A DNA stretch of 55,568 nt from Candidatus Woesearchaeota archaeon. Its GTDB lineage: Archaea > Nanobdellota > Nanobdellia > Pacearchaeales > GW2011-AR1. Positions within the stretch are counted from its first letter, which is position 1, and every line of letters starts with the position of its first letter. Shown here in pieces: positions 10,394 to 41,749 of this stretch. The notes beneath the pieces were generated by a model. That model saw only the letters and a program-made list of their open reading frames with translations, was not told the origin of the DNA and did not search any database. The stretch is from positions 1 through 55,568 of the forward strand of contig CAYPDP010000004.1 in NCBI GenBank assembly GCA_964409555.1, written 5' to 3'. Position numbers and translations under genes: made by a program.

Positions 10394-11227
10394 ATGAAAA
10401 TATTTATTGATAGTGCTGATATTGAAGAAATTAAAGAGGCTGTAAGTTATGGAATTTTAGATGGAGTTACAACTAATCCTAGTTTGATAAAAAAAGCTAT
10501 TGAAAATCAGAAAAAAAGAGGAAGAAAAATTGATATGAATTCTTATATAAAAAATATTTTAAAAATTTGTAAAGGAAAATCTGTTAGTTTAGAAGTTCTT
10601 GGTAGAAATTATGAGGAAATGATTAAAGAGGGAAGAAGTTTATATAAAAAATTTAATTCTGTTGCAAAAAATGTTTATATAAAAATTCCAATTAATACTT
10701 GTATGAAGGAGAATTGTGTTGATAGTTATGATGGAATTAAAGCAATAAAAACTCTTTCTAAAGAAGGAATACCTATTAATTGTACATTAATATTTACACC
10801 AGAACAAGCATTGTTAGCAGCAAAAGCAGGAGCAAAATTTGTAAGTCCTTTTGTCGGTAGAATTGATGATTATATAAGAAATTCAAATAAAATAAAATTT
10901 GATAAAAAAGATTATTTTCCAGAAAATGGTTTAAAAAATGACAAAAAAATTTTAGAAGATAATGGAATATTATCTGGAGTGGATTTAGTCAAAAAATGTG
11001 TAGATATTTTAAAATTATATAATTTTAAAACAGAAGTTTTAGCAGCGAGTATAAGAAATAGTAGACAAGTAAGAGAGGTTGCTTTAGTTGGAGCAAATAT
11101 TTCAACACTCCCTTTAGAAATAATTAAAAATTCTTTAACACATTATAAAACAATTGAAGGTATGAAGAAATTTACAAAAGATATTATTCCAGAATATTCT
11201 AAGATTGTAGGATATGAGGAAAAATAA
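10394..11227 (+). CDS. tal: Transaldolase (TalC/FSA family)
   Basis: GVTTNPSLI, VSLEV (Glu), IKIP, VSPFVGR (Phe; transaldolase rather than FSA pattern). Confidence 0.9.
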   Translation: MKIFIDSADIEEIKEAVSYGILDGVTTNPSLIKKAIENQKKRGRKIDMNSYIKNILKICKGKSVSLEVLGRNYEEMIKEGRSLYKKFNSVAKNVYIKIPINTCMKENCVDSYDGIKAIKTLSKEGIPINCTLIFTPEQALLAAKAGAKFVSPFVGRIDDYIRNSNKIKFDKKDYFPENGLKNDKKILEDNGILSGVDLVKKCVDILKLYNFKTEVLAASIRNSRQVREVALVGANISTLPLEIIKNSLTHYKTIEGMKKFTKDIIPEYSKIVGYEEK

Positions 11228-12124
11228 ATGAAAATTGATAAAAAAAATATTCCTAATCTTGATGAAATTGTATTAAGTGCAATTAATCTTTTTATAAAAG
11301 ATAAATTACCTAAAATAAATATTGGTAAATATAAACGTCTTTTAGTTGTTGGAAGCGGGAATGCTGCAGTAACAGGTAAAATAATTTTTGAAAAAAAAGA
11401 TGCTATTTTTGCTGATGAAAGTAATTATAAAGAAAAATTAAAAGCAATTAAAGAAGTTGATAAAGCTGTTTTAATATCTGCATCTGGAGGAAAACATGCT
11501 CCGATTATTGCAAAAGAATTGAAAAAAAGAAAAATAAATACGATTCTTATTACAAATACTAAAAATTCTTTAGCAGAAAAATATGTTAATAAAACTTATA
11601 TTTTTCCTAAACAAACTGAACCTTATACTTATAATACTTCAACTTACATGGGAAGTATAATTTCATATACTCAAGAAAATCCAAAAGAAATTTTAGATTA
11701 TTTAAAAAATATCAAAAAGAAGATTCCAAAGAATTTTAATAAATATGATTCGTATTATATAATTGTTCCTAATGAATTTGATTTGATAAGAGAAATGTTT
11801 CTTACAAAATTTGATGAACTTTTTGGGCCAAAAATATCTGGAAGAGTTTTTACAATTGAACAAACAAAACATGCTAAAACTTTAGTTCCTTCAGATAAAG
11901 AATTGTTTATAAGTTTTGGTTATAAAAATAATATCTTTGGTAAGAATAGATTAAATATCAGTCTCCCTTCAAAATTCAGTTATGCAACACTTCTTGCTGT
12001 AGGATATTATATAATAGGTCATATTCAAAAACAAAATAAACCTTATTTTAAAGAAAATATTGAGAATTATGCAAAAGAAGCATCAAAAATGTTTAAACAA
12101 AAAATAAATCCAATAGTTGAATAA
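11228..12124 (+). CDS. SIS-domain sugar-phosphate isomerase, probable glucose-6-phosphate isomerase (PGI/PMI-like)
   Basis: VVGSGNA, LISASGG, EQTKHA; position inside the PPP operon. Confidence 0.55.
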   Translation: MKIDKKNIPNLDEIVLSAINLFIKDKLPKINIGKYKRLLVVGSGNAAVTGKIIFEKKDAIFADESNYKEKLKAIKEVDKAVLISASGGKHAPIIAKELKKRKINTILITNTKNSLAEKYVNKTYIFPKQTEPYTYNTSTYMGSIISYTQENPKEILDYLKNIKKKIPKNFNKYDSYYIIVPNEFDLIREMFLTKFDELFGPKISGRVFTIEQTKHAKTLVPSDKELFISFGYKNNIFGKNRLNISLPSKFSYATLLAVGYYIIGHIQKQNKPYFKENIENYAKEASKMFKQKINPIVE

Positions 12125-13491
12125 TGAAAAAAGATACAACTTTTATAATACTTGGGGCAACAGGAGATTTAACAAAAAGAAAAATAATTCCTGCAATTTA
12201 TAATTTATTAAAAGATAAAAAGATAAAAAAATTTGTAATTATTGGAGTTGCACGTTCAGATATTGATATTCAGAAAATACTTTTAGAATCAAAAAAATTA
12301 ATTAAAAATTTAGATAAAAAAACATGGGAGAAAATTGTTAATTCATCATATTATAGACCTTTAGATTTTTATAATAAAAATGATTATAAAAAATTTGAAG
12401 AGTTTGTTATTGAAATTGAAAAAAAACATAATTTAAATGGTAGAAGAATATTTTATTTAGCAACTTTACCCCAACATTTTAAGAATATAACTTTTAATTT
12501 ATCAAAACTTCAAATATCTAAAGAAAATGAAAATAAAGATATTTCTGTTGTTTATGAAAAACCTTTTGGAGATGATTTAAAATCAGCAAGAGAAATTAAT
12601 AAGAATATCAATAAAATTTTTAAAGAAAAACAGATTTATAGGATTGACCATTATCTTGGAAAAAAATTGGTGGGAAATATTGCTTTAATTAGATTTACAA
12701 ATCGTATTTTTGAGCCATTATGGAATAAAGAAAATATTAGTTCTGTTGAAATTATTTTAAGCGAGAATTTCGGAATTAAAGAGAGAGGTAATTTTTATGA
12801 TAAATATGGTGCACTTAAAGATGTTGTTCAGAATCATGCTTTTCAATTACTTTCCTTGATAGCAATGGAATCTCCAAAGATGATTTCAGGAGAATATTTA
12901 AGAAATGAGAAAAAAAAAGTTCTTGAAAAAGTAAAAATTAAAGATGTAATTTTGGGACAATATGAAGGGTATAAAAAAGAAAAAGGGGTGGAAAAAAATT
13001 CTGTAACAGAAACTTTTGCTGGGCTTCATTTGCAAATTAATAATCCTCGTTGGAAAGGAGTTCCATTTTATATAAAAGCAGGTAAAAATCTAGATAAAAA
13101 TAATGTGAGTATCCATATTAAATTTAAAAAAACAAATTGTCTTCTTTCTAAAAATTGTTCAATGGATGAAAATGAATTTATAATAAAAATACAACCTGAA
13201 AGAAAATTTGAATTAAAAATAAATTCTAAAGTTCAGGAATCTAATTTTGAAGTATCACCTATAAATATGGAATTTTGTTATACTTGTTTGTATGGTCCAA
13301 ATACACCTGAAGCTTATGAAGTTTTATTAGAGGAAATTATAAAAAGAGATCAATCTTTCTTTGTAAGAAATGATGAGATTGAAGAAGCGTGGAAAATTAT
13401 TGATCAAATAGAAAAACAAAATAATAAAATTAATATTTATAAAAAAGGGAGTGAAGGTCCTAAAGAATTAAAAAATTGGAATATAAATTAA
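12124..13491 (+). CDS. zwf: Glucose-6-phosphate dehydrogenase, bacterial type
   Basis: GATGDL, GVAR, EKPFG, RIDHYLGK, DVVQNH. Confidence 0.95.
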   Translation: MKKDTTFIILGATGDLTKRKIIPAIYNLLKDKKIKKFVIIGVARSDIDIQKILLESKKLIKNLDKKTWEKIVNSSYYRPLDFYNKNDYKKFEEFVIEIEKKHNLNGRRIFYLATLPQHFKNITFNLSKLQISKENENKDISVVYEKPFGDDLKSAREINKNINKIFKEKQIYRIDHYLGKKLVGNIALIRFTNRIFEPLWNKENISSVEIILSENFGIKERGNFYDKYGALKDVVQNHAFQLLSLIAMESPKMISGEYLRNEKKKVLEKVKIKDVILGQYEGYKKEKGVEKNSVTETFAGLHLQINNPRWKGVPFYIKAGKNLDKNNVSIHIKFKKTNCLLSKNCSMDENEFIIKIQPERKFELKINSKVQESNFEVSPINMEFCYTCLYGPNTPEAYEVLLEEIIKRDQSFFVRNDEIEEAWKIIDQIEKQNNKINIYKKGSEGPKELKNWNIN

Positions 13492-13495
13492 AAAA

Positions 13496-14395
13496 ATGAA
13501 AATTGGATTTATTGGATTAGGTAGAATGGGAAATAATATGGTTTTAAATCTTTTAGAAAATAATCATAAAATTGTAGTAAATAATAGATCTCCAGAACCT
13601 ATAAAAAAATTAGCAAAAAAAGGTGCAATACCTGCTTTTAATTTAAAAGAGCTTTTTGAAAATCTTCCAAAACAAAAAATAATTTGGTTAATGATTCCAG
13701 CAGGAAAACCAGTAGACGATATTCTTAAAAAAATTACTCCTTTCATGAAAAAAGGAGATATTATAATTGATGGGGGAAATTCTTTTTTTAAAGATTCAAT
13801 TAAAAGATATAAGAAATTCAAAAAAAATAAAATTGGTTATTTAGATTGTGGAACTTCAGGAGGAATGGAAGGTGCAAGACATGGTGCATGTATGATGATT
13901 GGAGGAGATAAGAATGTATTTGAGAAAGTTAAAATTTTGTTTAAAGATATGACTGTAAAAAATGGTTATGGATATATGGGGAAAGCTGGTTCAGGTCATT
14001 TTGTAAAAGGAATTCATAATGCTATTGAATACGGAATGATGGGTGCATTAAACGAGGGATTTGAAGCAATTAAAAAACAAAAAAAATATTTTGGAACTGA
14101 TTTAAAGGAAGTATCAAAAGTTTATGATAATGGGAGTATTATTGAAGGAAGACTTTCACACTGGCTTTTTGATGCTATGAGTAAACCTAATTATTTTAAT
14201 AGTATTTCTTGCCAGGTTCCAAAAGGAGAAACTGAAAATGAAATGGAGTTTTTAGAAAAAATGTCTTATATGCCAATACTTCATCAAGCAAGATTAATGA
14301 GAGTTAATTCGAGAAAAAATAAATTTTGTGGAAGAGTAATATCTGCATTAAGAAATGAATTTGGAGGTCATAAGGTTATTAAGAAAAATAAATAA
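13496..14395 (+). CDS. gnd: 6-phosphogluconate dehydrogenase, decarboxylating, short type
   Basis: GLGRMG, NRS, IDGGNS, SGG, KGIHNAIEY. Confidence 0.92.
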   Translation: MKIGFIGLGRMGNNMVLNLLENNHKIVVNNRSPEPIKKLAKKGAIPAFNLKELFENLPKQKIIWLMIPAGKPVDDILKKITPFMKKGDIIIDGGNSFFKDSIKRYKKFKKNKIGYLDCGTSGGMEGARHGACMMIGGDKNVFEKVKILFKDMTVKNGYGYMGKAGSGHFVKGIHNAIEYGMMGALNEGFEAIKKQKKYFGTDLKEVSKVYDNGSIIEGRLSHWLFDAMSKPNYFNSISCQVPKGETENEMEFLEKMSYMPILHQARLMRVNSRKNKFCGRVISALRNEFGGHKVIKKNK

Positions 14396-14396
14396 A

Positions 14397-14846
14397 ATGA
14401 AAAAAATATATATTGCAGGAGATCATGCTGGTTTAAAATTAAAATTAAAAATTAAAAAATATCTTGAGAATTTAAATTTCAAAGTATTTGATTTTGGTCC
14501 TTTAGAATATGATTCAACAGATGATTATCCTGATTTTGTAATACCTCTTGCAAAAAAAATTTCAAAAGAAAAAGGAAGTAAGGGAATTGTTATTGCGGGT
14601 TCAGGACAAGGAGAGGCAATTGCAATGAATAAATTCAAAAATGTTAGAGCAGCTTTATATCATGGAGGCAATACAAAAATTGTTCAAACAGGAAGAGCTC
14701 ATGACAATTCAAATATTTTATCCTTGGGTTCAAGATTTATTACAGAAACTGAAGCAAAAAGAGCAATTAAAATATTTTTGAATACTGGTTTTGATGAAGG
14801 GAGACATAGAAGAAGACTTAATAAAATTAAAAAAATGGTGAAATAA
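14397..14846 (+). CDS. rpiB: Ribose-5-phosphate isomerase B
   Basis: DHAG, DDYPD, GSGQG, HDNSN, GRHRRR; start moved to ATG 14397. Confidence 0.92.
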   Translation: MKKIYIAGDHAGLKLKLKIKKYLENLNFKVFDFGPLEYDSTDDYPDFVIPLAKKISKEKGSKGIVIAGSGQGEAIAMNKFKNVRAALYHGGNTKIVQTGRAHDNSNILSLGSRFITETEAKRAIKIFLNTGFDEGRHRRRLNKIKKMVK

Positions 14847-14867: not shown

Positions 14868-15491
14868 ATGAAAAAACAGATAATTTCTTCAATAATTGCA
14901 AAAAATCAGCAAGAATTAAAAAAAAGAATTAAAAAAATTATTAATTTGAAGAGATTTCAATTAGATGTTATGGATGGTAAATTTGTTTCAAATAAATCTT
15001 TACTTTTTAATTTTGAACTTCCAAGATTAAAAAAATATGAAGCACATTTAATGATTAAAAATCCTGAAAAATGGATAAATAAAAATTATAAAAAAGTTGA
15101 TACAATTATATTTCATATTGAATCTACAAAAAATCCTTTAAAAATAATTAAATTAATCAAAAATAAAAAAAAGAATGTTGGAATTGCTTTAAATCCTAAA
15201 ACTTCAATTAATGAAATTAAACCTTACCTTAAAAATATTTCCTTGGTTCTTATTATGACAGTAAATCCTGGAAAATATGGGGCTAAATTTTTATCATCTA
15301 CTTTAATTAAAATAGAAAAATTAAGAAAAATTAAAAAAGATATTAATATAGAAGTTGATGGAGGAATAAATTCAGAAACAATAATTAAAGTAAATAAAGC
15401 AGGAGCAAATTTATTTGTTGTTGGTTCTTATTTTCAAAAAAGTGTAAATATTAAGAAAGATATTAATAAATTAAAAAAGATTGTTAAATAA
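14868..15491 (+). CDS. rpe: Ribulose-phosphate 3-epimerase
   Basis: LDVMDGKFV, EAHLM, MTVNPG, EVDGG. Confidence 0.92.
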   Translation: MKKQIISSIIAKNQQELKKRIKKIINLKRFQLDVMDGKFVSNKSLLFNFELPRLKKYEAHLMIKNPEKWINKNYKKVDTIIFHIESTKNPLKIIKLIKNKKKNVGIALNPKTSINEIKPYLKNISLVLIMTVNPGKYGAKFLSSTLIKIEKLRKIKKDINIEVDGGINSETIIKVNKAGANLFVVGSYFQKSVNIKKDINKLKKIVK

Positions 15492-15492
15492 A

Positions 15493-17316
15493 ATGGCTAA
15501 TTTAAAAGAATTAAAAGATATTGCAAATGTTCTAAGAAGAGATGTTATGAAAATGACAACTTCAGCTGGTTCTGGACATCCGACTTCTTGCATGAGTTGT
15601 GCAGAAATAATGTCCTATTTATTTTTCAAAGAAATGAATTATGATACAAAAAATCCTTTTAATTCAGATAATGATGAATTTATTTTGAGCAAAGGTCATG
15701 CTGCTCCAATTTTATATTCTTGTTTATATCATTCTAATTGTATTAAAGAAGACCTTCTTTCATTAAGAAAAATTAATAGTAAATTAGAAGGACATCCTAT
15801 GCCTTCTTCTTTAAATTGGATTAAAGTAGCCACAGGTTCTTTAGGGCAAGGGCTTTCGGTGGGAATTGGAATGGCTCTTGCATCAAAAATTCAAAAAAAG
15901 AAGTATAACACTTATGTTCTTTTAGGAGATAGTGAGATAGCTGAGGGTTCAATTTATGAAGCTTTGCAATTAGCATCTTTCTATAAATTGGATAATCTTG
16001 TAGCAATTATTGATGTCAACAAGTTAGGGCAAAGAGGTGAAACAATGCTTGGCCATAAGACAATTTCATATCAAAATAGATTTAAATCATTTGGATGGGA
16101 TAGTATAATTATTGATGGACATGATATTGAAAAAGTTTCTAAGGCATTTAAATTAGCAAAAAATTCAAAAAAACCTTTTGTAATAATAGCAAAAACTTTG
16201 AAAGGTAAAGGAGTTTCTTTTTTAGAAAATAAAAATGGTTGGCACGGAAAACCTTTGAATAAAGATGAATTAAATAAAGCATTAAAAGAAATTCCAAAAG
16301 TTAATATTCCTAAAATTAAAATAGAAAAACCAAAGTCAATTAATTTTAAATTTAAAAAAAATAATAAGGAAAATGTTTTGAAATATTCTAAAGATGAAAA
16401 AGTTGCTACAAGAGATGCTTATGGAAATGCTCTTGCAAATTTAGCTTATTTAGATTCAAGAATTTTGGCGATTGATGCAGAAGTTAGTAATTCTACAAAA
16501 TCTGGAGAAGTTAAGAATAAAACTCCTAAACAATTTATTGAGGCTTATATTGCAGAACAAAATATGATTGGAATGGCTTTAGGGTTGAGTGTTCAAGGGT
16601 TTAGTGTTTTTGCTTCTACATTTGCGGCTTTTTTATCAAGAGCACATGACCAGATAAGAATGTCTGCTATTTCAAAAGCTAATTTGACTATTTGCGGTTC
16701 TCATGCAGGAATATCTATTGGAGAAGATGGAGCATCACAAATGGGAATTGAAGATATTGCTTTATTTAGATGTCTTCCTGAAAGTATTATATTTTATCCG
16801 AGTGATGCTGTATCTGCTTTTAAATTAGTCAATCTTGCAAATTCTCTAAAAGGAATAAAATATATTAGAACAACAAGAGAAAAAACTTCTGTAATTTATA
16901 ATAATAATGAAAAATTTAAACTAGGAGATTTTAAAATTTTAAAGCAATCTAAACAGGACAAAGTTGTTTTAATTGGAGCAGGAATAACTCTTCATGAAGC
17001 TTTAAAATCTTATTATGAATTAAAGAAAAAAAATATAAATATTGCAGTTGTTGATTTATATTGTATTAAACCATTTAATTCTAAAAAATTGTTGAAGTTT
17101 GTTGAAAAGCATGGGAAAAAAATAATTGTTGTAGAAGACCATAGACCTGAAGGAGGAATTGGAGAGATGATTTCATATGAATTAAGAAATGATAATATAA
17201 AAATAGAAACTCTTTCAGTTAAAGAAATTCCTCATTCTGGAAAAAAAGATGAATTACTTAATAAATATGGAATAAATTTTGAGAATATTATTAAAACTGT
17301 TAAAAAAATAATTTAG
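15493..17316 (+). CDS. tkt: Transketolase, single chain
   Basis: GHPTS, LSKGHA, GSLGQG, GDSE TPP motif, IAEQNM, GEDGASQ; ATG 15493. Confidence 0.95.
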   Translation: MANLKELKDIANVLRRDVMKMTTSAGSGHPTSCMSCAEIMSYLFFKEMNYDTKNPFNSDNDEFILSKGHAAPILYSCLYHSNCIKEDLLSLRKINSKLEGHPMPSSLNWIKVATGSLGQGLSVGIGMALASKIQKKKYNTYVLLGDSEIAEGSIYEALQLASFYKLDNLVAIIDVNKLGQRGETMLGHKTISYQNRFKSFGWDSIIIDGHDIEKVSKAFKLAKNSKKPFVIIAKTLKGKGVSFLENKNGWHGKPLNKDELNKALKEIPKVNIPKIKIEKPKSINFKFKKNNKENVLKYSKDEKVATRDAYGNALANLAYLDSRILAIDAEVSNSTKSGEVKNKTPKQFIEAYIAEQNMIGMALGLSVQGFSVFASTFAAFLSRAHDQIRMSAISKANLTICGSHAGISIGEDGASQMGIEDIALFRCLPESIIFYPSDAVSAFKLVNLANSLKGIKYIRTTREKTSVIYNNNEKFKLGDFKILKQSKQDKVVLIGAGITLHEALKSYYELKKKNINIAVVDLYCIKPFNSKKLLKFVEKHGKKIIVVEDHRPEGGIGEMISYELRNDNIKIETLSVKEIPHSGKKDELLNKYGINFENIIKTVKKII

Positions 17317-20513: not shown

Positions 20514-21365
20514 TTAATCAATCAATAAACTCGCACCCAATATTCCTTCATGTTCTAACTTAGTCCATACAATAGTAGTTTTTCTAGGAATAATTGTATA
20601 TTTTTTTGTTTGTTCTTTTATCATTTTTAAAAGTTTATCTCCTGCTTCTTTAAAACCACCTGCTAGAATAATCACTTCAGGATCTAAAATATTAATTAAA
20701 CTTGCAATTCCTTGCCCGAGATAAGAAGTTATTTCATCTAATATTTTTTTAGAATTTTTATCATTATTTTTTGTTAATTCTGAAACCATACAAACTTTTT
20801 TACAATATTTCTTTGATAATTTTTTAACAGCTTTTCCTCCTGCAAAATTTTCAAAATCCTTTCCATTATTTAAAATAAAATGTCCTAACTCACTTGCATA
20901 TCCCTCCCCATCAAAACCTTTATACAACTGTCCATTAAGAATTATTCCTCCACCTATACCAGTTCCCAACGTAATTAAAACAAAATTCTTTTTTCCTTTT
21001 CCTAATCCTAATTTTAATTCTGCTAAAGCAAAACAATTCGCATCATTTTCAACTTCAACTTTTAGTTTAAATTTTTTCTGAAGAATTTTTTTTAAATTAA
21101 AATTCTTTAAAGGCAAATTAGGCGATATTTTTATAACTCCCTTAGAAATCATTCCTGCACTTGAAATTCCAATACCTTTAATATTTGATTTACCATATTC
21201 TTTAATAAACTCAGATATATTTTTTTCCATTAATCTTAATAGATAATTTTTTTCAAGAGGAGTATTATTTTTCACAAATTTTATTATTTTATTGTTTTTC
21301 AGAACAGCCACTCTTAAATGTGTTCCACCTAAATCAATAGCAATTTTATATTTAACCATTTTCAT
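20514..21365 (-). CDS. ROK-family sugar kinase (probable glucokinase)
   Basis: IDLGGT, ENDANC, TLGTGIGGG, ELGH. Confidence 0.88.
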   Translation of the reverse strand: MKMVKYKIAIDLGGTHLRVAVLKNNKIIKFVKNNTPLEKNYLLRLMEKNISEFIKEYGKSNIKGIGISSAGMISKGVIKISPNLPLKNFNLKKILQKKFKLKVEVENDANCFALAELKLGLGKGKKNFVLITLGTGIGGGIILNGQLYKGFDGEGYASELGHFILNNGKDFENFAGGKAVKKLSKKYCKKVCMVSELTKNNDKNSKKILDEITSYLGQGIASLINILDPEVIILAGGFKEAGDKLLKMIKEQTKKYTIIPRKTTIVWTKLEHEGILGASLLID

Positions 21366-21541: not shown

Positions 21542-22543
21542 ATGCAAAAATTACTTCCAAAAAAAGAATTGAATAATTTTCTTATATCTTTAATAAGAAA
21601 ATATGAATTAATAGCTCCTGTTAAAAATTCTTTTGGAAAACCTTCTAGATTTAAAATAATTAAAAATAAAGAGGAAATTCAAGAGATTGATTTAAATGGC
21701 TTAACTGAAATATCTCAGAAAAAGTTTTTTATTCCTGAAAGAGAAACTCTTCTTGAATTTAAAAATGGAAAATCAATAGAAAATAATCCTTTAATAGATA
21801 AAAAAAAGATAAAAAAAAGAATTATTTTTGGAATAAGAAAATGTGATATTAATTCTCTTCAAATTTTAGATAATGTTATGAAAGATCCACTATATATTAG
21901 TAAAAGAAAAAATACTTTTTTAATTGGCTTACATTGTGAGAATCCAGATGAATTTTGTTTTTGCAATTCTATGGAATTAAATGATAAAGGTTCTGATTTA
22001 TTTTTCTATCCTGATAAAAATAATTATTATATAAGTGTTAATTCAAAATTTGGGGAAAAAATTGTTAAAATTCTAAAAGAAGTAAAATCTGGTAAGGAAG
22101 TTGTAAAAAAAATAAAAAATTTTAAAGTTCTTGGAAATAAAAATATAGATAAAAATTATAGAAATAAAATATGGCAATCTGATTCTGACAAATGTTTGAG
22201 TTGTGCTGCTTGTACAATTGACTGTCCAACTTGTAATTGTTTTGATATTTATGATGAGTTAGATATTAATTTAAAAGATGGTATGAGAAAAAGAAAATCT
22301 GCTTCGTGTATGCTTAAAAGTTTTTCAAAAGTTGCAGGAGGGAAATCATTTAGAGATTCTCGTTTAAGTAGATTCAAACATTTTGTTTATCATAAAATTG
22401 TTTATTACAAAAAAGTTCATGGAAGATATATGTGCACAGGATGTGGGAGGTGTTTGAGAATATGTCCTACACACATAGATTGGACTGATACAATTAATTT
22501 TTTGAATGAAATTAAAGATGCTAATAAGAAAAAAATAAAATGA
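21542..22543 (+). CDS. hydB: Group 3b hydrogenase beta subunit (Fe-S)
   Basis: CFC, CLSCAACTIDCPTCNC, CTGCGRCLRICP. Confidence 0.88.
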   Translation: MQKLLPKKELNNFLISLIRKYELIAPVKNSFGKPSRFKIIKNKEEIQEIDLNGLTEISQKKFFIPERETLLEFKNGKSIENNPLIDKKKIKKRIIFGIRKCDINSLQILDNVMKDPLYISKRKNTFLIGLHCENPDEFCFCNSMELNDKGSDLFFYPDKNNYYISVNSKFGEKIVKILKEVKSGKEVVKKIKNFKVLGNKNIDKNYRNKIWQSDSDKCLSCAACTIDCPTCNCFDIYDELDINLKDGMRKRKSASCMLKSFSKVAGGKSFRDSRLSRFKHFVYHKIVYYKKVHGRYMCTGCGRCLRICPTHIDWTDTINFLNEIKDANKKKIK

Positions 22544-23361
22544 CTTATAATACAAAATCTTGCAAAATAATTGAAATAAAAAAATTTACACATAATGTTA
22601 AATTAATTAAAATTAAATCTAACTTAAATCCAGAACCAGGTCAATTTATTCAGGTAGGAATTCTTGGAATTGGTGAGTGTCCTTTAGGACCTTGTTCATA
22701 TAATAATCAAGAAATTGAAATGATTATTAAAAATGCAGGAAATGTTACTTCTGCTATTTTCAAATTAAAAAAAGGTGATTCATTAGATATAAGAGGTCCT
22801 TATGGCAAAGGATTTCCTCTTGAAAAAATAAAGGGAAAAGATTTAATAATAATTGGTGGAGGAACAGGAATTGCACCGGTTTCATCTCTTATTGATTATA
22901 TTTATAAAAATGATAAAAATTTTGGAGATATTAAAATTTATTTTGGTTTTAAAGATGAAAATAATATTTTAATTAAAAATAAATTTAAACCATGGAAGAA
23001 GAAATTTAATTTAACTATAACTCTTGATGAAAAATTAGGGATAGGAAATATTAAAACTAAAAAAGGATTTATACATGAAGTTATAAAAAATGAGAAAATA
23101 AAAATTAATTCTGAAAATACAATAGCATTTATATGTGGTCCTGAAATTATGATGAAAAATGTTTCTGAAGAACTCAATAATCTTGGAATTAAAAATAATA
23201 GTATATTTTGGAGCATGGAAAGAAGAATGGAATGTGCTTTTGGAAATTGTGGAAGATGTTTAATTCAAGATGTTTATGTTTGCAAAGACGGACCTGTTTT
23301 TAATTATCAAGAAATTAAACCAAAGATTGAAAATGAACAATCAAGTAATAATTATATTTGA
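22540..23361 (+). CDS. hydG: Group 3b hydrogenase gamma subunit (FAD/NAD(P)-binding)
   Basis: RGPYG, GGGTGIAP, CGP, ERRMECAFGNCGRC. Confidence 0.88.
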   Translation: MTYNTKSCKIIEIKKFTHNVKLIKIKSNLNPEPGQFIQVGILGIGECPLGPCSYNNQEIEMIIKNAGNVTSAIFKLKKGDSLDIRGPYGKGFPLEKIKGKDLIIIGGGTGIAPVSSLIDYIYKNDKNFGDIKIYFGFKDENNILIKNKFKPWKKKFNLTITLDEKLGIGNIKTKKGFIHEVIKNEKIKINSENTIAFICGPEIMMKNVSEELNNLGIKNNSIFWSMERRMECAFGNCGRCLIQDVYVCKDGPVFNYQEIKPKIENEQSSNNYI

Positions 23362-24199: not shown

Positions 24200-24460
24200 A
24201 TGGAAAATAAAATCTTACATTATCCCAAATTGAATTCAATCCTTATGGTTGAAAAAGCAATTCAAGACAGCAAAGACTATCAGACAAAAATGCAATTATG
24301 GAAAAGTTTGCCAAAACAAATGCAATACCAGACATTTAAATTAATCTTAGATTATCTTGAGATATCAAATAAAATTATGATTGAAGATGATAAGATAATA
24401 TGGATTTTTGTAAATAATAAAAAACTTAATGAATTAATAGATGGGGCAGTTAAAGTATAA
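24200..24460 (+). CDS. Small winged-helix-like protein, putative antitoxin/regulator
   Basis: 86 aa with HTH-like pattern; own promoter/operator; precedes a RelE-like ORF. Confidence 0.5.
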   Translation: MENKILHYPKLNSILMVEKAIQDSKDYQTKMQLWKSLPKQMQYQTFKLILDYLEISNKIMIEDDKIIWIFVNNKKLNELIDGAVKV

Positions 24461-24493
24461 TAATTCAGAAAAGAGGAATTTTCTTAATCAAAA

Positions 24494-24850
24494 ATGAAAG
24501 AATTTGTTGTTCAATTAAGCAGAGAATTATTTAAATCAAAAATTCAGATTGAAAAAGAGTTAGGTCAAGACAATAAATCTAATGAAGAGTTATATTCATT
24601 AATTCTAAAGACAATTGATTTCTTAAAGTTAAAAAGAAAAGGAGAACCTGTTTCAAAAAAACTTCCTATATACAAATATTTTGAAAAAAAACATAGGATA
24701 ACTAATTTATTTTTAATTAAGATAAGTAAAGAGGCTAGAGCATTCTATACAAATATTTCTAGAGATAAATATGCAATCTTGCAGATTATTTTAGAAGTTC
24801 ATAAGACTCATAAAGAATATGAAAAGAAAGGAGGATATAATAAGCATTAA
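24494..24850 (+). CDS. Putative RelE/ParE-like toxin
   Basis: Basic 118-aa protein; ITNLFLIKISKEARAFY...ILEV..HKEY loosely resembles RelE. Confidence 0.4.
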   Translation: MKEFVVQLSRELFKSKIQIEKELGQDNKSNEELYSLILKTIDFLKLKRKGEPVSKKLPIYKYFEKKHRITNLFLIKISKEARAFYTNISRDKYAILQIILEVHKTHKEYEKKGGYNKH

Positions 24851-36633: not shown

Positions 36634-37547
36634 TTTAATTTCATTGTTAGTAATTTATTTTTAGCACCAAAATATTTTATTACAGATTCACTCTCTCTTA
36701 ATCCTAATTTTAAACATTCAGAAATACTTTTCTTTACAATAATTCCTGCAACAAATCCTGAAGCAAAAGCATCTCCTGCACCTGTTCTTTCAATAACTTT
36801 TATTTTATTAGGTTTTAATTTATAGATTTCTCCAGAATAAGAATCATAACATTGCATTGGCTTATTTCTATCAGTAATTACTATTATCTTAGGACCTAAT
36901 CTATTTAATCCTTTTAATAAGTCATTATCTTTAGTTAACATTCTTGCCTCTTCTTTATTTAAAATTAATATCTCTGTAATTCTTAACAAATCTTTTATTT
37001 CTTCAAATTTTCTTTTTATTAAATATTCACTTGGATTAAATGCTAATTTCACTTTTCTTTTTTTTCTTAAATATCTTGCAAGTTGTATTTGTGTTTTAAA
37101 ACTTTTTTCAAGAAGAGAAGAATAATAAATCCATTTTGTTTTTATTTTCCTAAGTTTTAATTCATCCATTGATAAATCATTATTCGGTCCTTTATAAGTA
37201 AGAATTGTTCTATTATCTTCCTTACTATCTAGAATTATTGAATATCCATTTGAAACTTTCTTTTTTACCATTCCTAGAAATTTTATTTTTTCTTTTTTTA
37301 ATGAATCAAGAATAGATTTGGTATTTGTATCTAACCCTATTTTTCCAATATACCCTGTTTTTAATCCTAGTCTTGAAAAAGCAACAGCAGTATTTGTTCC
37401 TCCACCACCTATGTCAAATTTTACATTTTCAATAAGAATTTTACTTCCAACAGGATAACTCATGAATTTTCCTTTTTCTGGGAAATCAGTATCTACAAAA
37501 ATATCCATAACTGCACTTCCAAAAGTTATCACATCAAATTTAGTCAT
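36630..37547 (-). CDS. PfkB-family carbohydrate kinase
   Basis: GGGGTNTAV, RTGAGDAFASG. Confidence 0.88.
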   Translation of the reverse strand: MTKFDVITFGSAVMDIFVDTDFPEKGKFMSYPVGSKILIENVKFDIGGGGTNTAVAFSRLGLKTGYIGKIGLDTNTKSILDSLKKEKIKFLGMVKKKVSNGYSIILDSKEDNRTILTYKGPNNDLSMDELKLRKIKTKWIYYSSLLEKSFKTQIQLARYLRKKRKVKLAFNPSEYLIKRKFEEIKDLLRITEILILNKEEARMLTKDNDLLKGLNRLGPKIIVITDRNKPMQCYDSYSGEIYKLKPNKIKVIERTGAGDAFASGFVAGIIVKKSISECLKLGLRESESVIKYFGAKNKLLTMKLK

Positions 37548-39572: not shown

Positions 39573-40748
39573 TTAATTTAAAACTTCAATTCCAGGAAGT
39601 TTTTCTCCAGCAATATATCTTGCCAAAGCTCCACCACTAAGGCTTATATGACTAAATTTTTTTAAAGATATTCTTGATTTTTTAACTGCATCATTCAAAT
39701 GCCCTCCCCCAATTAAAGAAAACCCTTTATTTTTAGATATCGCATTTAATATTTCAAAAGTTCCTTTGCAAAAATTATTATCTACACATTCTCCAACAGG
39801 GCCCTTCATGAAAATTGATTTTGATTTTTTTATTTCATTAATATATGATTTAATAGTTTTTTCTCCAATATCATATATTTCATAATTACTTGGAAAATCA
39901 TTAATTGAAATCTCTTTTCTGGATTTTTTTATTTTAACAGCAAAATCAATAGGAGTCATAATTTTTTTTGAATTTAAAAAATATTTTATTATTTTTTTTG
40001 ATTTATTTATAATATCTATTTTATCTTTTAAATATTCATTCTGAGCTCCAAAATTAAAACCTTGGGAAATTAAACATAATTGTCCAAAAAGGCCACCTGT
40101 TAAAATTTTTATCTTCTTTTTTTTAAGAGAATTAATCAATCTTAAATTGTCTTCAGGTTTTGCCCCTCCTAAAATAAATAATGAACTTTTATTTTTTATT
40201 TTTTTTAAAGATTTTACTTCTTTTTCAAGAAGTCTCCCTGCACAATGCGGAAGATATTTTGGTATTTTTATTATAGATGTTTGATTTCTATGACAAACTG
40301 AAAATGCATCATTAATATAAAAATCTACAAGAGGTATCAGAATTTTTATTATTTTATTATTTTTTTTATCTGGTTTAAATTCATCTTCTATAAATCTTAT
40401 ATTTTCTAAAAGAATTACCTCTCCAGATTTTAATTTTTTAATTTCATTTACAGCATTTTTACCTAAAATATCTGAAATAAATTTCACTTTTACATATTTA
40501 TTTAAAAATCTTGCATGTTGTTTTAAACTTACAAAATCTTTTTTTCCAGGACGTCCTTGATGAGCTAAAATAATTATTTTTGCTTTTTGCTTTTTTAATT
40601 CTTTTATTGTTTCTGAAGAAGATTTTATTCTCTTAGATTCTACTACTTTATTTTTTCCCTTATTAATTAATGAAATAACATCTGAATTTAAATCAACCCT
40701 TAACAAAACTTTTTTATTTTTAAAATTAAAATCAGAAATAGTTTTCAT
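39573..40748 (-). CDS. pgk: Phosphoglycerate kinase
   Basis: RVDLN, AHQGRPG, LLENIRF, NDAF, GGAK, GGGH, SLSGGA. Confidence 0.95.
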   Translation of the reverse strand: MKTISDFNFKNKKVLLRVDLNSDVISLINKGKNKVVESKRIKSSSETIKELKKQKAKIIILAHQGRPGKKDFVSLKQHARFLNKYVKVKFISDILGKNAVNEIKKLKSGEVILLENIRFIEDEFKPDKKNNKIIKILIPLVDFYINDAFSVCHRNQTSIIKIPKYLPHCAGRLLEKEVKSLKKIKNKSSLFILGGAKPEDNLRLINSLKKKKIKILTGGLFGQLCLISQGFNFGAQNEYLKDKIDIINKSKKIIKYFLNSKKIMTPIDFAVKIKKSRKEISINDFPSNYEIYDIGEKTIKSYINEIKKSKSIFMKGPVGECVDNNFCKGTFEILNAISKNKGFSLIGGGHLNDAVKKSRISLKKFSHISLSGGALARYIAGEKLPGIEVLN

Positions 40749-40756
40749 TATAACTA

Positions 40757-41749
40757 TTACCTGTATTTAGAAATTAAATTTATCATATCAATCATTCTTG
40801 AACTATAACCATATTCATTATCATACCAAGATAAAACTTTTATAGTATTTCCTAAAGTCATAGTAGAAAGTCCGTCAACAATTGAAGAATGAGGATTTTT
40901 AATTATGTCTGAAGATACTATTTCATCTTCTGTATAATCTAAAATACCTTTTAATTTTCCTAAAGAAGCTTTTTTTAATTCTTTATTTACCTGTTCTTTT
41001 GTTACTTTAATTTTAAGTTCAGCAACAAAATCTACAACACTGCCTGAAGCAATTGGGACTCTCATTGCTAATCCATCAAGACGACCTTTTAATTCAGGAA
41101 TTACTTCGCAAACAGCAGTTGTGGCTCCAGAAGTTGTTGGAATAATATTCAAACCAGCAGTCCTTCCTCTTCTTAATTTTTTATGAGGTGAATCTAAAAG
41201 TTTTTGACTTGTAGTGTAACCATGAATTGTTGTCATGAATCCTTTTTTTATTCCGAATTTATCATTAAGAATTTTAGCAACAGGTGCAAGACAATTAGTT
41301 GTACAACTTGCAACAGAAATTATATTATGTTTTTTAGTAAGTTGTTTCTCATTAACTCCAACAACAATAGTTATATCCGAATTTTTAACAGGGGCTGATA
41401 CAAGAACTTTCTTTGCTCCAGCCTTAATATGTTTTTCAATTTTATTCTTCTCCCTAAATAAACCAGTAGATTCTATAACAATATCTACACCTAATTCTTT
41501 CCAAGGTAAATTTTCAGGATTTTCTTCAGAAAGAATTTTTATTTTTTTATTATTGATTTTTATAAAATCTTTTCCAATTTCAATTTTTTTATTATAATTT
41601 CCGTAAACAGAATCATACTTTAATAAATAAGAAATTGTTTTAATATCTGTTAAATCATTAATCGCAACAATATTAATTCCTTTTTCAAGCCCTATTTTTA
41701 ATATGTGTCTTCCAATTCTTCCCAAACCATTAATTGCAACTTTAACCAT
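40757..41749 (-). CDS. gap: Glyceraldehyde-3-phosphate dehydrogenase, bacterial class I
   Basis: NGLGRIG, ASCTTNCLAP, WYDNEYGY. Confidence 0.95.
   Translation of the reverse strand: MVKVAINGLGRIGRHILKIGLEKGINIVAINDLTDIKTISYLLKYDSVYGNYNKKIEIGKDFIKINNKKIKILSEENPENLPWKELGVDIVIESTGLFREKNKIEKHIKAGAKKVLVSAPVKNSDITIVVGVNEKQLTKKHNIISVASCTTNCLAPVAKILNDKFGIKKGFMTTIHGYTTSQKLLDSPHKKLRRGRTAGLNIIPTTSGATTAVCEVIPELKGRLDGLAMRVPIASGSVVDFVAELKIKVTKEQVNKELKKASLGKLKGILDYTEDEIVSSDIIKNPHSSIVDGLSTMTLGNTIKVLSWYDNEYGYSSRMIDMINLISKYR

What the first reader, a model, noticed from the sequence alone, without database searches (positions are those of the whole stretch)
10394..41749. Co-located sugar -> NADPH -> H2 gene set resembling the synthetic cell-free hydrogen pathway
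Seen within about 31 kb: GH15, ROK kinase, isomerase, Zwf, Gnd, Rpi, Rpe, Tkt, Tal, Tpi, Fba, a four-subunit group 3b hydrogenase, HypA/HypC/protease and a Ni transporter. Established: engineered starch-to-H2 cascades combine these PPP enzymes with the NADP-coupled group 3b hydrogenase of Pyrococcus. Inference: the cell may cycle hexose phosphate through the oxidative PPP and vent NADPH as H2 to a scavenging partner, with Gap/Pgk making ATP and D-LDH reoxidising NADH. Caveats: no FBPase seen; the gamma subunit reads GFKD where NADP binders often have GAR/S; the reverse direction (H2 uptake) is possible; NADPH-to-H2 needs very low pH2.
Basis: partly seen in the sequence, partly recalled or inferred. 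Interest (0 to 1): 0.72.

Follow-up and report, generated by a model that had tools for sequence, protein, structure and literature searches.

The report
Sugar-fermentation and hydrogenase island, Pacearchaeota
A tiny-genome archaeon keeps its sugar-breakdown genes and a nickel-iron hydrogenase side by side, as its relatives do, but the pentose-phosphate operon next to them is a one-off neighbour, and the lineage lacks the standard genes for building the hydrogenase's metal centre.

Summary
The gene inventory is real. Within 10394-41749 lie a seven-gene pentose-phosphate operon (tal, SIS isomerase, zwf, gnd, rpiB, rpe, tkt), a ROK kinase, a four-subunit group 3b [NiFe]-hydrogenase, hypA, hypC, an endopeptidase, tpi, a class I aldolase, PfkB, GH15, a D-2-hydroxyacid dehydrogenase, a NiCoT-like transporter, pgk and gap.

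The sugar-to-NADPH-to-H2 reading is only partly supported.
- **For it:** Zwf and Gnd carry NADP-type motifs. The hydrogenase gamma subunit keeps a basic residue where P. furiosus SHI has Arg. A divergent NAD kinase exists.
- **Against it:** among 120 relatives, 9 have the hydrogenase and 4 have zwf, and none has both. What recurs in Pacearchaeota is the hydrogenase with its hyp genes next to glycolysis genes. The PPP operon sits there only in this genome. No FBPase of classes II, IV or V was found, and a class I motif search was negative.
- **Main caveat:** HypD, HypE and HypF are absent from all ten hydrogenase-bearing genomes of this family. A same-class relative has hypA-C-D-E-F beside an orthologous operon.

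Most likely this is a fermentative redox-valve island beside a lineage-specific PPP operon. It is a new member of a known kind.

The parts
10394..11227 (+). tal, transaldolase / F6P-aldolase family; first gene of the PPP operon
   Evidence: PF00923 E 1.3e-59; TIGR00875 192 bits, below its cut-off
11228..12124 (+). Two-SIS-domain phosphosugar isomerase of unknown substrate; candidate phosphoglucose isomerase
   Evidence: SIS 19.9 bits, below cut-off. No PDB sequence hit. AF2 pLDDT 92. Foldseek matches GlmS isomerase domain, NagB-II and AgaS, E 1e-10, TM 0.55-0.66. 2735 homologues, the named ones from DPANN archaea and mostly annotated 'hypothetical'.
12124..13491 (+). zwf, glucose-6-phosphate dehydrogenase
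   Evidence: G6PD_N and G6PD_C; TIGR00871 479 bits against cut-off 400; 'GVARS' Arg present
13496..14395 (+). gnd, short-type 6-phosphogluconate dehydrogenase with the NADP-type 'NNRS' motif
   Evidence: NF007161 325 bits and TIGR00872 307 bits, both above cut-off; alignment to solved short-type Gnds that read 'DR' or 'DL' (one, 8ihe/9ijb, named NAD+-dependent)
14355..14846 (+). rpiB, ribose-5-phosphate isomerase B (true start probably the Met near 14397)
   Evidence: PF02502 E 7e-42; NF004051 160 bits against cut-off 135
14868..15491 (+). rpe, ribulose-phosphate 3-epimerase
   Evidence: PF00834 E 1e-46
15481..17316 (+). tkt, unsplit 611-aa transketolase; last gene of the PPP operon
   Evidence: Transketolase_N, Transket_pyr and Transketolase_C
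20514..21365 (-). ROK-family sugar kinase (glucokinase candidate), divergent from hydB; this pairing is conserved in relatives
   Evidence: PF00480 E 1e-50; ROK lies next to hydB in G031, G015 and L062, and beside the hydB-less hyd operon of L063
21542..22543 (+). hydB, hydrogenase beta subunit (AsrA-like Fe-S protein)
   Evidence: Fer4_22; ShyB, HydB and AsrA models E 1e-45 to 1e-50
22540..23361 (+). hydG, gamma subunit (FNR-like FAD/NAD(P)-binding protein with a [2Fe-2S] site)
   Evidence: NAD_binding_1 and DHODB_Fe-S_bind; 9nez_C SHI gamma E 5e-41; GF[K/R] conserved in 7 of 7 orthologues
23363..24154 (+). hydD, delta (small) subunit
   Evidence: Oxidored_q6; HydD and ShyD models E 1e-45
24200..25782 (+). 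Four orphan ORFs (86, 118, 149 and 151 aa) inserted between hydD and hydA; the last overlaps the hydA start by ATGA
   Evidence: No Pfam hit. No paralogue in the genome and no homologue in relatives' loci. The operon is uninterrupted in G017, G058, G059, G031 and G062.
25779..27071 (+). hydA, [NiFe] large subunit with L1 RICGICSVAH, L2 DPCFSCSTH and C-terminal extension FLKVNWE
   Evidence: PF00374; HydA model 284 bits; 5yxy_A E 1e-73; motifs conserved in 9 of 9 relatives
29365..29784 (-). Probable large-subunit C-terminal endopeptidase (HycI/HybD-like)
   Evidence: TIGR00072 E 3e-4, below cut-off; conserved beside hydA in nine genomes, with LGN...D/E, DVV and HDFD motifs
29835..30761 (+). EamA (DMT) transporter embedded in the maturation cassette
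   Evidence: EamA E 2e-48; 67-74% identical copies at the same position in G058, G062 and G041
30758..31231 (-). p157: helical N-domain plus HypC-like OB fold (DUF6390-related); invariant C14, H83, C105 and H148
   Evidence: HupF_HypC 24.3 bits, below cut-off. Family alignment. AF2 pLDDT 96.5. 3vyt_A HypC rmsd 0.8 A over 51 columns.
31270..31473 (-). hypC (67 aa; Cys2 present, conserved His absent)
   Evidence: TIGR00074 E 1.4e-12, 47.3 bits against cut-off 48; MC[FL]xIPGK conserved in relatives
31475..31804 (-). hypA, Ni metallochaperone (MHE N-terminus, two CxxC pairs)
   Evidence: PF01155 E 1e-11; sequence
33055..33702 (-). tpi, archaeal-length triosephosphate isomerase
   Evidence: PF00121 E 2e-23; syntenic in G058, G031, G062, G041, L062 and L063
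33699..34697 (-). D-2-hydroxyacid dehydrogenase (D-lactate dehydrogenase candidate; substrate not resolved)
   Evidence: 2-Hacid_dh_C E 3e-57; no NCBIfam model above cut-off; also adjacent to hyp genes in G058 and G157
35875..36633 (-). Class I (DhnA/FbaB-type) aldolase, FBP aldolase candidate
   Evidence: DeoC E 2e-45; archaeal class I FBA model 203 bits, below cut-off; syntenic in relatives
36630..37547 (-). PfkB-family sugar or sugar-phosphate kinase (candidate ATP-PFK)
   Evidence: PF00294 E 3e-39; no equivalog above cut-off; syntenic in G031, G041 and L063
37630..38784 (-). GH15 catalytic domain (glucoamylase / oligosaccharide amylase-like)
   Evidence: PF00723 E 1e-8; TIGR01577 114 bits, below cut-off; same position in L063
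38885..39556 (-). NiCoT/NicO-like membrane protein (Ni or Co transporter candidate)
   Evidence: NicO 27.8 bits against cut-off 27.7; DsbD_2 38 bits; KHALDTDHF motif; not found near the hydrogenase in relatives
39573..40748 (-). pgk, phosphoglycerate kinase
   Evidence: PF00162 E 1e-99
40757..41749 (-). gap, type I GAPDH with the NAD-type Asp ('AINDL')
   Evidence: TIGR01534 425 bits against cut-off 367; sequence

Best explanation
The region is two things placed side by side.

(1) From about 20.5 to 41.7 kb lies a sugar-fermentation and hydrogenase island that is conserved across Pacearchaeota. It holds a ROK glucokinase, the group 3b (sulfhydrogenase-type) [NiFe]-hydrogenase hydBGDA, and a reduced maturation cassette (endopeptidase, EamA, DUF6390-like p157, hypC, hypA). 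It also holds EMP genes (PfkB, class I aldolase, tpi, gap, pgk), a GH15 glucoamylase-like enzyme and a D-2-hydroxyacid dehydrogenase.

The inferred mechanism runs as follows. Glucans are cleaved and phosphorylated, and hexose phosphate goes down the EMP route. NAD(P)H is then reoxidised in one of two ways. Pyruvate is reduced to D-lactate, or electrons pass through the FNR-like gamma subunit, the Fe-S beta and delta subunits and the [NiFe] alpha subunit to protons (H2) or polysulfide. This would be a cytoplasmic redox valve that depends on an H2-scavenging partner.

(2) At 10.4-17.3 kb lies a seven-gene PPP operon with zwf and gnd. Its position beside the island is specific to this genome. Its Zwf and Gnd look NADP-dependent, so here the hydrogenase may additionally take NADPH. 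That link is not a conserved, selected module, and without FBPase only a partial cycle through the SIS isomerase is possible.

Shown here: gene identities, synteny, motifs, and the presence or absence of genes. Inferred: direction of the hydrogenase, its cofactor, and the role of each kinase, aldolase and isomerase.
For: - Gene identities.
- Island synteny: hydBGDA, protease, (EamA), p157, hypC and hypA lie with tpi, fba and pfkB, and with ROK, ldhD, pgk/gap, GH15, enolase/apgM, PFOR+ACS, PPDK, glycogen synthase/GH57 or an MFS transporter. This holds in G017, G058, G059, G031, G062 and G015, in L062 = GCA_038740375.1 and in L063.
- An orthologous operon in another family (G157) also sits next to ldhD.
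- All four Ni-Fe cysteines and the cleavable C-terminal extension are conserved in 9 of 9 large subunits. More than 100 homologues share 56-78% identity. This argues for purifying selection.
- Gap has the NAD-type Asp.
- Zwf and Gnd have NADP-type motifs. Gamma reads GF[K/R] opposite the SHI 'TAR'.
- Enolase and a PEP synthase/PPDK-type enzyme lie elsewhere in the genome.
- zwf is rare in the family and is never found with the hydrogenase elsewhere.
- The literature already infers that group 3b enzymes act as NAD(P)H-reoxidising hydrogenases in Woesearchaeota (PMC8421398) and in CPR (PMC7304191).
Against: - HypD, HypE and HypF are undetectable in all ten hydrogenase-bearing genomes of the family. 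HypD is found at E 1e-104 to 1e-129 in 16 other genomes of the phylum. A same-class relative has the full hypA-C-D-E-F set beside its operon. By current knowledge, no Fe(CN)2CO centre can be made without them.
- The best-studied 3b enzymes (P. furiosus SHI, T. kodakarensis Hyh) are thought to work physiologically in H2 uptake (own knowledge).
- NAD(P)H to H2 is endergonic except at very low H2 pressure.
- hydA is separated from hydBGD by a 1.6-kb insert.
- No expression data are available.
- Several enzyme assignments (PfkB, aldolase, SIS, 2-hydroxyacid dehydrogenase) are at family level only.
Confidence: 0.6

Rival explanations
1. Hexose phosphate is cycled through the oxidative PPP, and the NADPH is vented as H2 by the group 3b hydrogenase. 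This would be a natural analogue of the synthetic starch-to-H2 cascade, serving as a main catabolic route.
For: - Ten of the thirteen activities of the synthetic pathway have a candidate within 31 kb.
- Zwf and Gnd have NADP-type motifs.
- A conserved basic residue sits in gamma where NADPH-specific SHI has Arg.
- A NAD kinase-like gene is present.
- Motif searches found no NADPH-thioredoxin reductase or other obvious NADPH sink (weak evidence).
Against: - There is no co-occurrence of zwf and the hydrogenase in 120 relatives.
- There is no synteny at nine inspected zwf loci in other genomes.
- No FBPase of class II, IV or V was found, and no class I motif.
- PfkB and aldolase point towards glycolysis.
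- By stoichiometric inference, the partial cycle would give about 1 ATP and 6 H2 per glucose, against 2 ATP by the EMP-to-lactate route.
- HypD, HypE and HypF are absent.
- The closest zwf operons elsewhere are paired with an FNR-like flavoprotein and 6PGL, or with FTR and a cupredoxin, not with a hydrogenase.
Confidence: 0.2
2. The hydrogenase works in the uptake direction. H2 released by a host or by neighbours is oxidised to make NAD(P)H, as proposed for the Thermococcales SHI and Hyh enzymes.
For: - The alpha subunit is closest to the T. kodakarensis and P. furiosus cytosolic enzymes.
- Group 3b enzymes are reversible (PMC7304191).
- Uptake is thermodynamically downhill.
Against: - A fermenter of this size has few evident reductant-consuming pathways.
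- The hydrogenase sits with reductant-producing glycolysis genes and with a second NADH sink (ldhD).
- This genome additionally carries NADPH-producing Zwf and Gnd.
Confidence: 0.12
3. The complex is mainly a sulfhydrogenase or AsrAB-like NAD(P)H:polysulfide/sulfur reductase rather than a proton reductase.
For: - Beta and gamma score best against anaerobic sulfite reductase AsrA and AsrB (171 and 233 bits).
- The P. furiosus enzyme reduces S0 and polysulfide (PMC1866174 reference list; PMC7304191).
- A tandem rhodanese protein lies 0.3 kb upstream of tal.
Against: - No AsrC or sirohaem subunit is present.
- The Ni-Fe site, HypA, HypC and the protease are all retained, which implies hydrogen chemistry.
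- The higher AsrA/B scores may only reflect the narrow taxonomic scope of the HydB/G models.
Confidence: 0.1
4. The hydrogenase is not a working [NiFe]-hydrogenase in this family. After loss of hypD, hypE and hypF it is either a decaying relic or has been re-purposed with a different metal site.
For: - HypD, HypE and HypF are absent in 10 of 10 genomes. A positive control in the same class detects HypD.
- BATS-type radical-SAM alternatives are absent in 121 of 121 genomes.
- Accessory genes are inserted inside the operon in several genomes.
Against: - All four metal cysteines, the C-terminal extension, the endopeptidase, HypA (Ni site) and HypC (Cys2) are conserved across ten genera.
- No frameshifts or stops were seen.
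- The hypC, EamA and DUF6390-like genes are strongly conserved.
Confidence: 0.15
5. The PPP operon serves pentose supply and NADPH for the thiol-redox system immediately upstream, not the hydrogenase. It is compatible with the best explanation.
For: - The PPP operon starts 70 bp after a same-strand operon that ends with the ferredoxin:thioredoxin reductase catalytic subunit, a rhodanese, CcdA and Trx/DsbA proteins.
- An FTR-B homologue and a cupredoxin homologue accompany tal-zwf-gnd in L038. An FNR-like flavoprotein and 6PGL precede zwf-gnd in L052.
- A class II RNR and dCTP deaminase in the window need pentoses and reductant.
Against: - No NADPH-dependent thioredoxin reductase or FNR other than hydG was detected, and this rests on motif searches only.
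- FTR takes ferredoxin, not NADPH.
- Adjacency alone is weak evidence in a compact genome.
Confidence: 0.3

Closest known systems
Group 3b [NiFe]-hydrogenases: P. furiosus sulfhydrogenase I/II (HydBGDA, ShyBCDA) and T. kodakarensis cytosolic Hyh (PDB 9nez, 5yxy)
   Same: Four subunits in the same order (beta, gamma, delta, alpha). L1 and L2 cysteine motifs. A C-terminal extension with a dedicated protease. An FNR-like gamma subunit. Best sequence matches of all four subunits.
   Different: Only about 35-40% related (all models score below their equivalog cut-offs). Mesophilic, 24% GC DPANN host. No HypD, HypE or HypF in the genome family. hypC lacks the conserved His. An EamA transporter and a DUF6390-like HypC-domain protein lie in the cassette. 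A 1.6-kb insert lies between delta and alpha.
CPR 'hyd1' and DPANN group 3b hydrogenase clusters (Jaffe et al. 2020, PMC7304191; Huang et al. 2021, PMC8421398)
   Same: A cytoplasmic four-subunit 3b-type enzyme in an ultra-small fermentative organism, with a neighbouring HypC-like family and patchy distribution. A 'hyd2'-like form with a truncated small subunit (151-180 aa) occurs in relatives G041, G046 and G090. The literature infers a role in NAD(P)H reoxidation.
   Different: Here it lies next to a complete oxidative plus non-oxidative PPP operon. Those papers do not mention the absence of HypD, HypE and HypF ('maturation' occurs 0 times in each).
Synthetic cell-free starch-to-H2 pathway (Zhang et al. 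2007, PMC1866174)
   Same: G6PDH, 6PGDH, RPI, RPE, TAL, TKT, TPI, aldolase, a candidate PGI and a group 3b hydrogenase are all encoded within 31 kb.
   Different: Entry is by GH15 hydrolysis and an ATP-dependent ROK kinase, not by phosphorylase and phosphoglucomutase. No FBPase was found. PfkB, Gap, Pgk and a lactate-type dehydrogenase divert carbon to fermentation. The authors state that the pathway 'does not function in nature', and nothing here shows that it does.
Canonical [NiFe] maturation, HypABCDEF plus endopeptidase, as in same-class relative G157
   Same: hypA, hypC, a DUF6390-like gene and the protease lie next to hydBGDA in both. ldhD is adjacent in both.
   Different: G157 has HypD (389 bits), a HypE-like AIRS protein and a full HypF between hypC and the DUF6390-like gene. 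The window's family has none of them.

Membership tests
Group 3b [NiFe]-hydrogenase | Large subunit with the N-terminal RxCGxCxxxH and C-terminal DPCxxCxxH Ni-Fe ligand motifs | tested here: met
   RICGICSVAH and DPCFSCSTH; conserved in 9 of 9 relatives
Group 3b [NiFe]-hydrogenase | Closest to characterised 3b enzymes rather than to groups 1, 2, 3a, 3c, 3d or 4 | tested here: met
   HydA/ShyA models score 284 and 257 bits, against VhuA 152 and FrhA 142. PDB 5yxy and 9nez E 1e-73, against Mvh 1e-45 and Hox 1e-31. No phylogeny was built.
Group 3b [NiFe]-hydrogenase | Heterotetramer with an AsrA-like Fe-S beta subunit and an FNR-like NAD(P)-binding gamma subunit | tested here: met
Group 3b [NiFe]-hydrogenase | Fe(CN)2CO assembly machinery HypC, HypD, HypE and HypF in the genome | tested here: not met
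   HypC is present. HypD, HypE and HypF are absent in G000 and nine relatives. A positive control finds HypD in the same phylum and a full set in G157. The genomes are 79-92% complete.
Group 3b [NiFe]-hydrogenase | NAD(P)H-linked reversible H2 activity | not testable with these tools
   Only a motif-level hint: GF[K/R] aligned to the SHI 'TAR'
Oxidative pentose phosphate pathway | Zwf and decarboxylating Gnd above curated family thresholds | tested here: met
   TIGR00871 479 bits against 400; NF007161 325 against 271; TIGR00872 307 against 297
Oxidative pentose phosphate pathway | NADP+ as acceptor | tested here: inconclusive
   Gnd reads 'NNRS' where the solved short-type Gnds read 'DR' or 'DL' (one of them named NAD+-dependent). 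Zwf has 'GVARS'. These are motifs only. NCBIfam names the short-Gnd family both ways.
Oxidative pentose phosphate pathway | 6-phosphogluconolactonase | tested here: inconclusive
   None among the window ORFs scanned. The rest of the genome was not searched with PF01182. A 6PGL precedes zwf in L052.
Synthetic starch-to-H2 cycle (13 activities) | Fructose-1,6-bisphosphatase to close the cycle | tested here: not met
   PF01950, PF03320 and PF00459 give no hit. Class I and IMPase PROSITE patterns give no hit.
Synthetic starch-to-H2 cycle (13 activities) | Phosphoglucose isomerase | tested here: inconclusive
   No PGI signature in the genome. The two-SIS-domain isomerase between tal and zwf has the right fold class, but its substrate is unknown.
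Synthetic starch-to-H2 cycle (13 activities) | Functional linkage of PPP and hydrogenase (co-occurrence or synteny across genomes) | tested here: not met
   None of 120 relatives has both. No hydrogenase lies near zwf at nine inspected loci in other genomes.
CPR/DPANN hyd1-type cluster with hypC, EamA and DUF6390-like cassette | His-less HypC, an EamA transporter and a HypC-domain (DUF6390-related) protein beside hydBGDA | tested here: met
   PF19927 is annotated on family members P0251-P0253 and on the G157 177-aa protein.

The most novel reading that the evidence does not exclude
Pacearchaeota of this family make an active NAD(P)H-linked [NiFe]-hydrogenase without HypD, HypE or HypF. They would use only HypA, a His-less HypC, the DUF6390-like p157 (invariant Cys2His2), an EamA transporter and the endopeptidase. 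In this one genome the enzyme would then be the sink for NADPH from a complete Zwf/Gnd PPP operon. That would make it the nearest natural counterpart of the synthetic sugar-to-H2 cascade.
Probability: 0.15. Interest if true: 0.8.

Novelty: new member of a known kind. Interest (0 to 1): 0.42.

Why it matters
If the hydrogenase is active, these abundant ultra-small archaea are H2 (or sulfide) sources that couple sugar fermentation to H2-consuming partners. That would bear on carbon and hydrogen flow in anoxic groundwater and sediments.

The specific NADPH-to-H2 idea would matter for biohydrogen engineering, but it rests on one genome's gene order.

The more consequential point is that a conserved [NiFe]-hydrogenase persists in a lineage without HypD, HypE or HypF. 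Either an unknown route to the Fe(CN)2CO centre exists, or genome-based H2 budgets for DPANN (and CPR) over-count functional hydrogenases.

Tried and rejected
1. A radical-SAM (HydG/HydE-like) alternative maturation route. A HypC::radical-SAM/BATS fusion lies next to hydBGDA on a JGI contig. However, the BATS domain is absent from all 121 relatives, including this genome. Rejected for this lineage.

2. p157 as a positional replacement for HypD. This was weakened, because a DUF6390-type protein also occurs in G157 together with HypD, HypE and HypF.

3. A mini-HypF. The HypF-model hits in G000 are an acylphosphatase::UppS fusion, a 96-aa acylphosphatase and Kae1.

4. A shared regulatory motif upstream of the PPP, hyd and glycolysis genes. 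Only a generic AAACATTTA(A/T) BRE/TATA-like element was seen, so there is no evidence for a common regulator.

5. The inserts between hydD and hydA in G000 and G015 are unrelated to each other, so this is not a shared mobile element.

6. Sequence search of the SIS protein against the PDB gave nothing. Only the fold search was informative.

8. Literature searches for DPANN plus HypD or maturation returned no paper. No paper on the SHI structure was found in the library.

Full report
**Organism and setting.**
- The window is contig C4 of a 760-kb, 57-contig, 86%-complete genome with 21-30% GC.
- RNA polymerase subunits show the archaeal Rpb2_4/5 domain pattern.
- The closest homologues of several proteins are labelled Candidatus Pacearchaeota, Nanoarchaeota or Woesearchaeota.

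**Observation.**
- Pfam and NCBIfam scans confirm every gene class listed.
- 10394-17316 is a tight same-strand operon: tal, a two-SIS-domain isomerase, zwf, gnd, rpiB, rpe and tkt.
- After five unrelated genes (an orphan sigma-70 region 4 protein, an M50 protease, an ArsR/TrmB-like HTH protein and membrane proteins) comes a ROK kinase, divergent from hydB-hydG-hydD.
- Four orphan ORFs follow (24200-25782), and then hydA.
- Downstream lie RecQ, a probable endopeptidase, EamA, a 157-aa HypC-domain protein (p157), the true 67-aa hypC, and hypA.
- Next come tpi, a D-2-hydroxyacid dehydrogenase, a class I aldolase, PfkB, GH15, a NiCoT-like protein, pgk and gap.
- hydA has intact L1 and L2 motifs and a C-terminal extension. 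It matches the T. kodakarensis and P. furiosus cytosolic enzymes best (E 1e-73). The group 3b assignment therefore holds at the level of sequence and architecture.
Details are in the observation check.

**Is the co-location meaningful?**
- I searched 120 relatives plus the window's own genome. Ten of the 121 genomes carry a [NiFe] large subunit. Five carry a true Zwf; four further hits are short matches in 324-346-aa proteins. Only the window's genome has both.
- I fetched up to 20 kb around each hydrogenase and compared the ORFs with the window's proteins.
- In G017, G058, G059, G031, G062 and G015 the order recurs: hydBGDA, protease, (EamA), p157, hypC, hypA. Beside it lie tpi, fba, pfkB, ROK, ldhD, pgk and gap.
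- Unmatched neighbours proved to be glycogen synthase, GH57, PFOR, acetyl-CoA synthetase, PPDK, GH130 and MFS transporters.
- Two further Pacearchaeota contigs found through hydA homologues show the same pattern. One has ROK, hyd, apgM, enolase, p157-like, hypC, hypA, TIM and DeoC. The other has ROK, hyd, hypC, hypA, TIM, DeoC, GH15 and PfkB.
- The conserved partner of the hydrogenase is therefore glycolysis and fermentation.
- By contrast, the closest Zwf homologues (52-58% identity, in DPANN-type MAGs and one Dependentiae-labelled MAG) and more distant CPR homologues mostly sit in zwf-gnd pairs, with no hydrogenase within about 10 kb at any of the nine loci inspected.
- In L052 the pair is preceded by an FNR-like flavoprotein and 6PGL. 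In L038 it is tal-zwf-cupredoxin-gnd, with an FTR catalytic subunit nearby.
- In the window, too, the PPP operon begins 70 bp after an FTR subunit that closes a thiol-redox operon.
- The position of the PPP block next to the hydrogenase island is therefore specific to this genome. With expected overlap of only about 0.3 genomes, the test has little power.

**Cofactors.**
- Gnd reads VVNNRS at the end of beta-2. The solved short-type enzymes read DR or DL there; one of them (8ihe/9ijb) is named NAD+-dependent. NR[ST] is the classical NADP motif (own knowledge).
- Zwf keeps the Arg of GxAR.
- Gap has the NAD-type Asp (AINDL).
- The Lys of the gamma subunit's 'GFKD' aligns with the Arg of 'TAR' in NADPH-specific P. 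furiosus SHI. It is Lys or Arg in all seven orthologues.
- A divergent NAD kinase exists (GGDGSFL and DGIVVSTFFGSSAY motifs; NAD_kinase_C 26.9 bits).

**Pathway closure.**
- No FBPase of class II, IV or V was found, and no class I or IMPase signature.
- No canonical PGI signature was found.
- The SIS protein between tal and zwf folds like two-SIS-domain phosphosugar ketol isomerases (pLDDT 92; Foldseek E 1e-10). It belongs to a family of at least 2735 proteins; the few that carry an organism label are from DPANN archaea, and most named ones are annotated 'hypothetical'. It is a reasonable but unproven PGI.
- At best a partial cycle is possible: G6P gives 3 CO2, 6 NADPH and GAP. By stoichiometry this yields less ATP than the EMP-to-lactate route and requires six H2 to be removed per glucose. 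This is inference.
- Enolase and a PEP synthase/PPDK-type enzyme are encoded elsewhere in the genome.

**Maturation, the main caveat.**
- HypD gives no hit in the genome or in any of the ten hydrogenase-bearing genomes.
- HypF and HypE models give only acylphosphatase, YrdC, Kae1 or AIRS-family fragments, far below cut-off.
- Signature motifs of HypD, HypE and HypB are absent.
- The same search finds HypD at E 1e-104 to 1e-129 in 16 of 401 genomes of the phylum, none of them in the window's family.
- In one of those genomes, G157, the locus reads ldhD, hypA, hypC, HypD, HypE-like, HypF, a DUF6390-like gene, protease, hydADGB. Its hydA is 46% identical to the window's.
- With completeness of 79-92% per genome, the chance of missing one given gene in all ten is about 3e-9. 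The family has therefore lost hypD, hypE and hypF.
- What it keeps is HypA (MHE motif and two CxxC pairs), a His-less HypC, the endopeptidase, an EamA transporter about as conserved as the small subunit (67-74% identity), and p157.
- p157 has an all-helical N-domain with no structural match, and a C-terminal barrel that superimposes on T. kodakarensis HypC (rmsd 0.8 A). Cys14, His83, Cys105 and His148 are invariant.
- A HydG/HydE-like route is excluded here, because the BATS domain is absent in 121 of 121 genomes.
- Whether the enzyme is active is open. Conservation of all metal ligands across ten genera argues that it is used.
- Earlier notes of this scan report the same hypC, EamA and DUF6390 cassette without HypD, HypE or HypF in CPR bacteria. 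I treat them as leads. The absence and the positive control were tested independently here.

**Comparison with what is known.**
- Group 3b hydrogenases in CPR (forms hyd1 and hyd2, with a HypC-like neighbouring family) and in Woesearchaeota have been described from genomes. They were interpreted as NAD(P)H-oxidising, H2-evolving and possibly reversible enzymes (PMC7304191; PMC8421398).
- A hyd2-like form, with a 151-180-aa small subunit and no adjacent beta or gamma subunit, replaces hyd1 in G041, G046 and G090. In G041 it lies within the same island.
- The synthetic pathway uses 13 enzymes including FBPase and PGI. Its authors say it does not function in nature (PMC1866174).
- The finding is thus a new member of a known kind. 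Its unusual feature is that a rare Zwf/Gnd operon lies next to the hydrogenase island.

**Verdict.**
- Best explanation (0.6): a conserved fermentative hydrogenase and glycolysis island acting as a NAD(P)H redox valve, lying next to a lineage-specific PPP operon.
- Interest: 0.42.

Noticed in passing
window 29365-31804, plus L024-L031, L062, L063 and L071: The window's family keeps hypA, a His-less hypC, EamA, a DUF6390-like HypC-domain protein (invariant C14, H83, C105, H148) and an endopeptidase. It lacks hypD, hypE and hypF. Same-class genome G157 has the full set beside an orthologous operon.
   Followed up: yes
JGI sample 3300072015, 261-kb contig (no DNA held): Next to a hydBGDA operon lie a 427-aa HupF_HypC::Radical_SAM::BATS fusion and a second 457-aa Radical_SAM/BATS protein. 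This suggests a HydG/HydE-like route to the [NiFe] ligands in another lineage. The BATS domain is absent from all 121 relatives of the window's genome.
   Followed up: partly
window 24155-25782; L030 6539-7144 and 8149-9784; L062 8473-9213; L063 8497-9246: The junctions between hydG and hydD and between hydD and hydA are repeatedly occupied by unrelated accessory genes. G000 has four orphan ORFs. G015 has a 201-aa ORF between hydG and hydD and three ORFs between hydD and hydA; from their sequences I read these as a GNAT acetyltransferase, a nucleotidyltransferase/HEPN pair and a methyltransferase, not confirmed by any scan. L062 has a methyltransferase, and L063 an AP endonuclease. hydA stays intact in each case.
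   Followed up: partly
window 11228-12124: This 298-aa protein belongs to a family of at least 2735 proteins. The few with an organism label are from DPANN archaea, and most named ones are annotated 'hypothetical'. The confident model has the two-SIS-domain phosphosugar isomerase fold. It is a candidate for the 'missing' PGI of these genomes.
   Followed up: partly
window 10052-10324 and 2109-10324; L038 5318-5599 and 11406-11789; L052 8456-9994: zwf-gnd modules recur next to redox proteins. An FTR catalytic subunit lies immediately upstream of tal here. FTR and a cupredoxin lie within the tal-zwf-gnd block of L038. An FNR-like flavoprotein and 6PGL lie upstream of zwf in L052.
   Followed up: partly
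L029 (G046), L031 (G041), L032 (G090): Three relatives carry a second hydrogenase type. Its alpha subunit is 34-36% identical, its small subunit is truncated (151-180 aa), and no beta or gamma subunit is adjacent. It resembles the CPR 'hyd2' form. In G041 it is embedded in the same pfkB-fba-tpi-p157-EamA-protease island, and an MFS transporter lies upstream of the small-subunit gene.
   Followed up: partly
window 17318-17638 (-): A 106-aa ORF consists of a sigma-70 region 4 domain only (E 5e-16), in an archaeal genome.
   Followed up: no
window 48607-55384, compared with L068 and L033: The RNA polymerase B and A subunits are each a single ORF here (1095 and 1162 aa). In same-class relatives they are split: 502+600 and 870+376 aa in G487, and 727+382 aa in G118.
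   Followed up: no
genome contig C25:2628-3332; C6:18091-19128: There is a very short (234-aa), divergent NAD kinase (GGDGSFL; NAD_kinase_C 26.9 bits). There is also an acylphosphatase fused to an undecaprenyl-diphosphate-synthase-like domain; the synthase half is inferred from the HVAIIPDGNRRWA motif only.
   Followed up: partly
window 672-1997: A GH5 cellulase-family protein (E 5e-32) lies 8 kb upstream of the PPP operon. It adds to the GH15 enzyme as evidence of a polysaccharide-degrading capacity.
   Followed up: no
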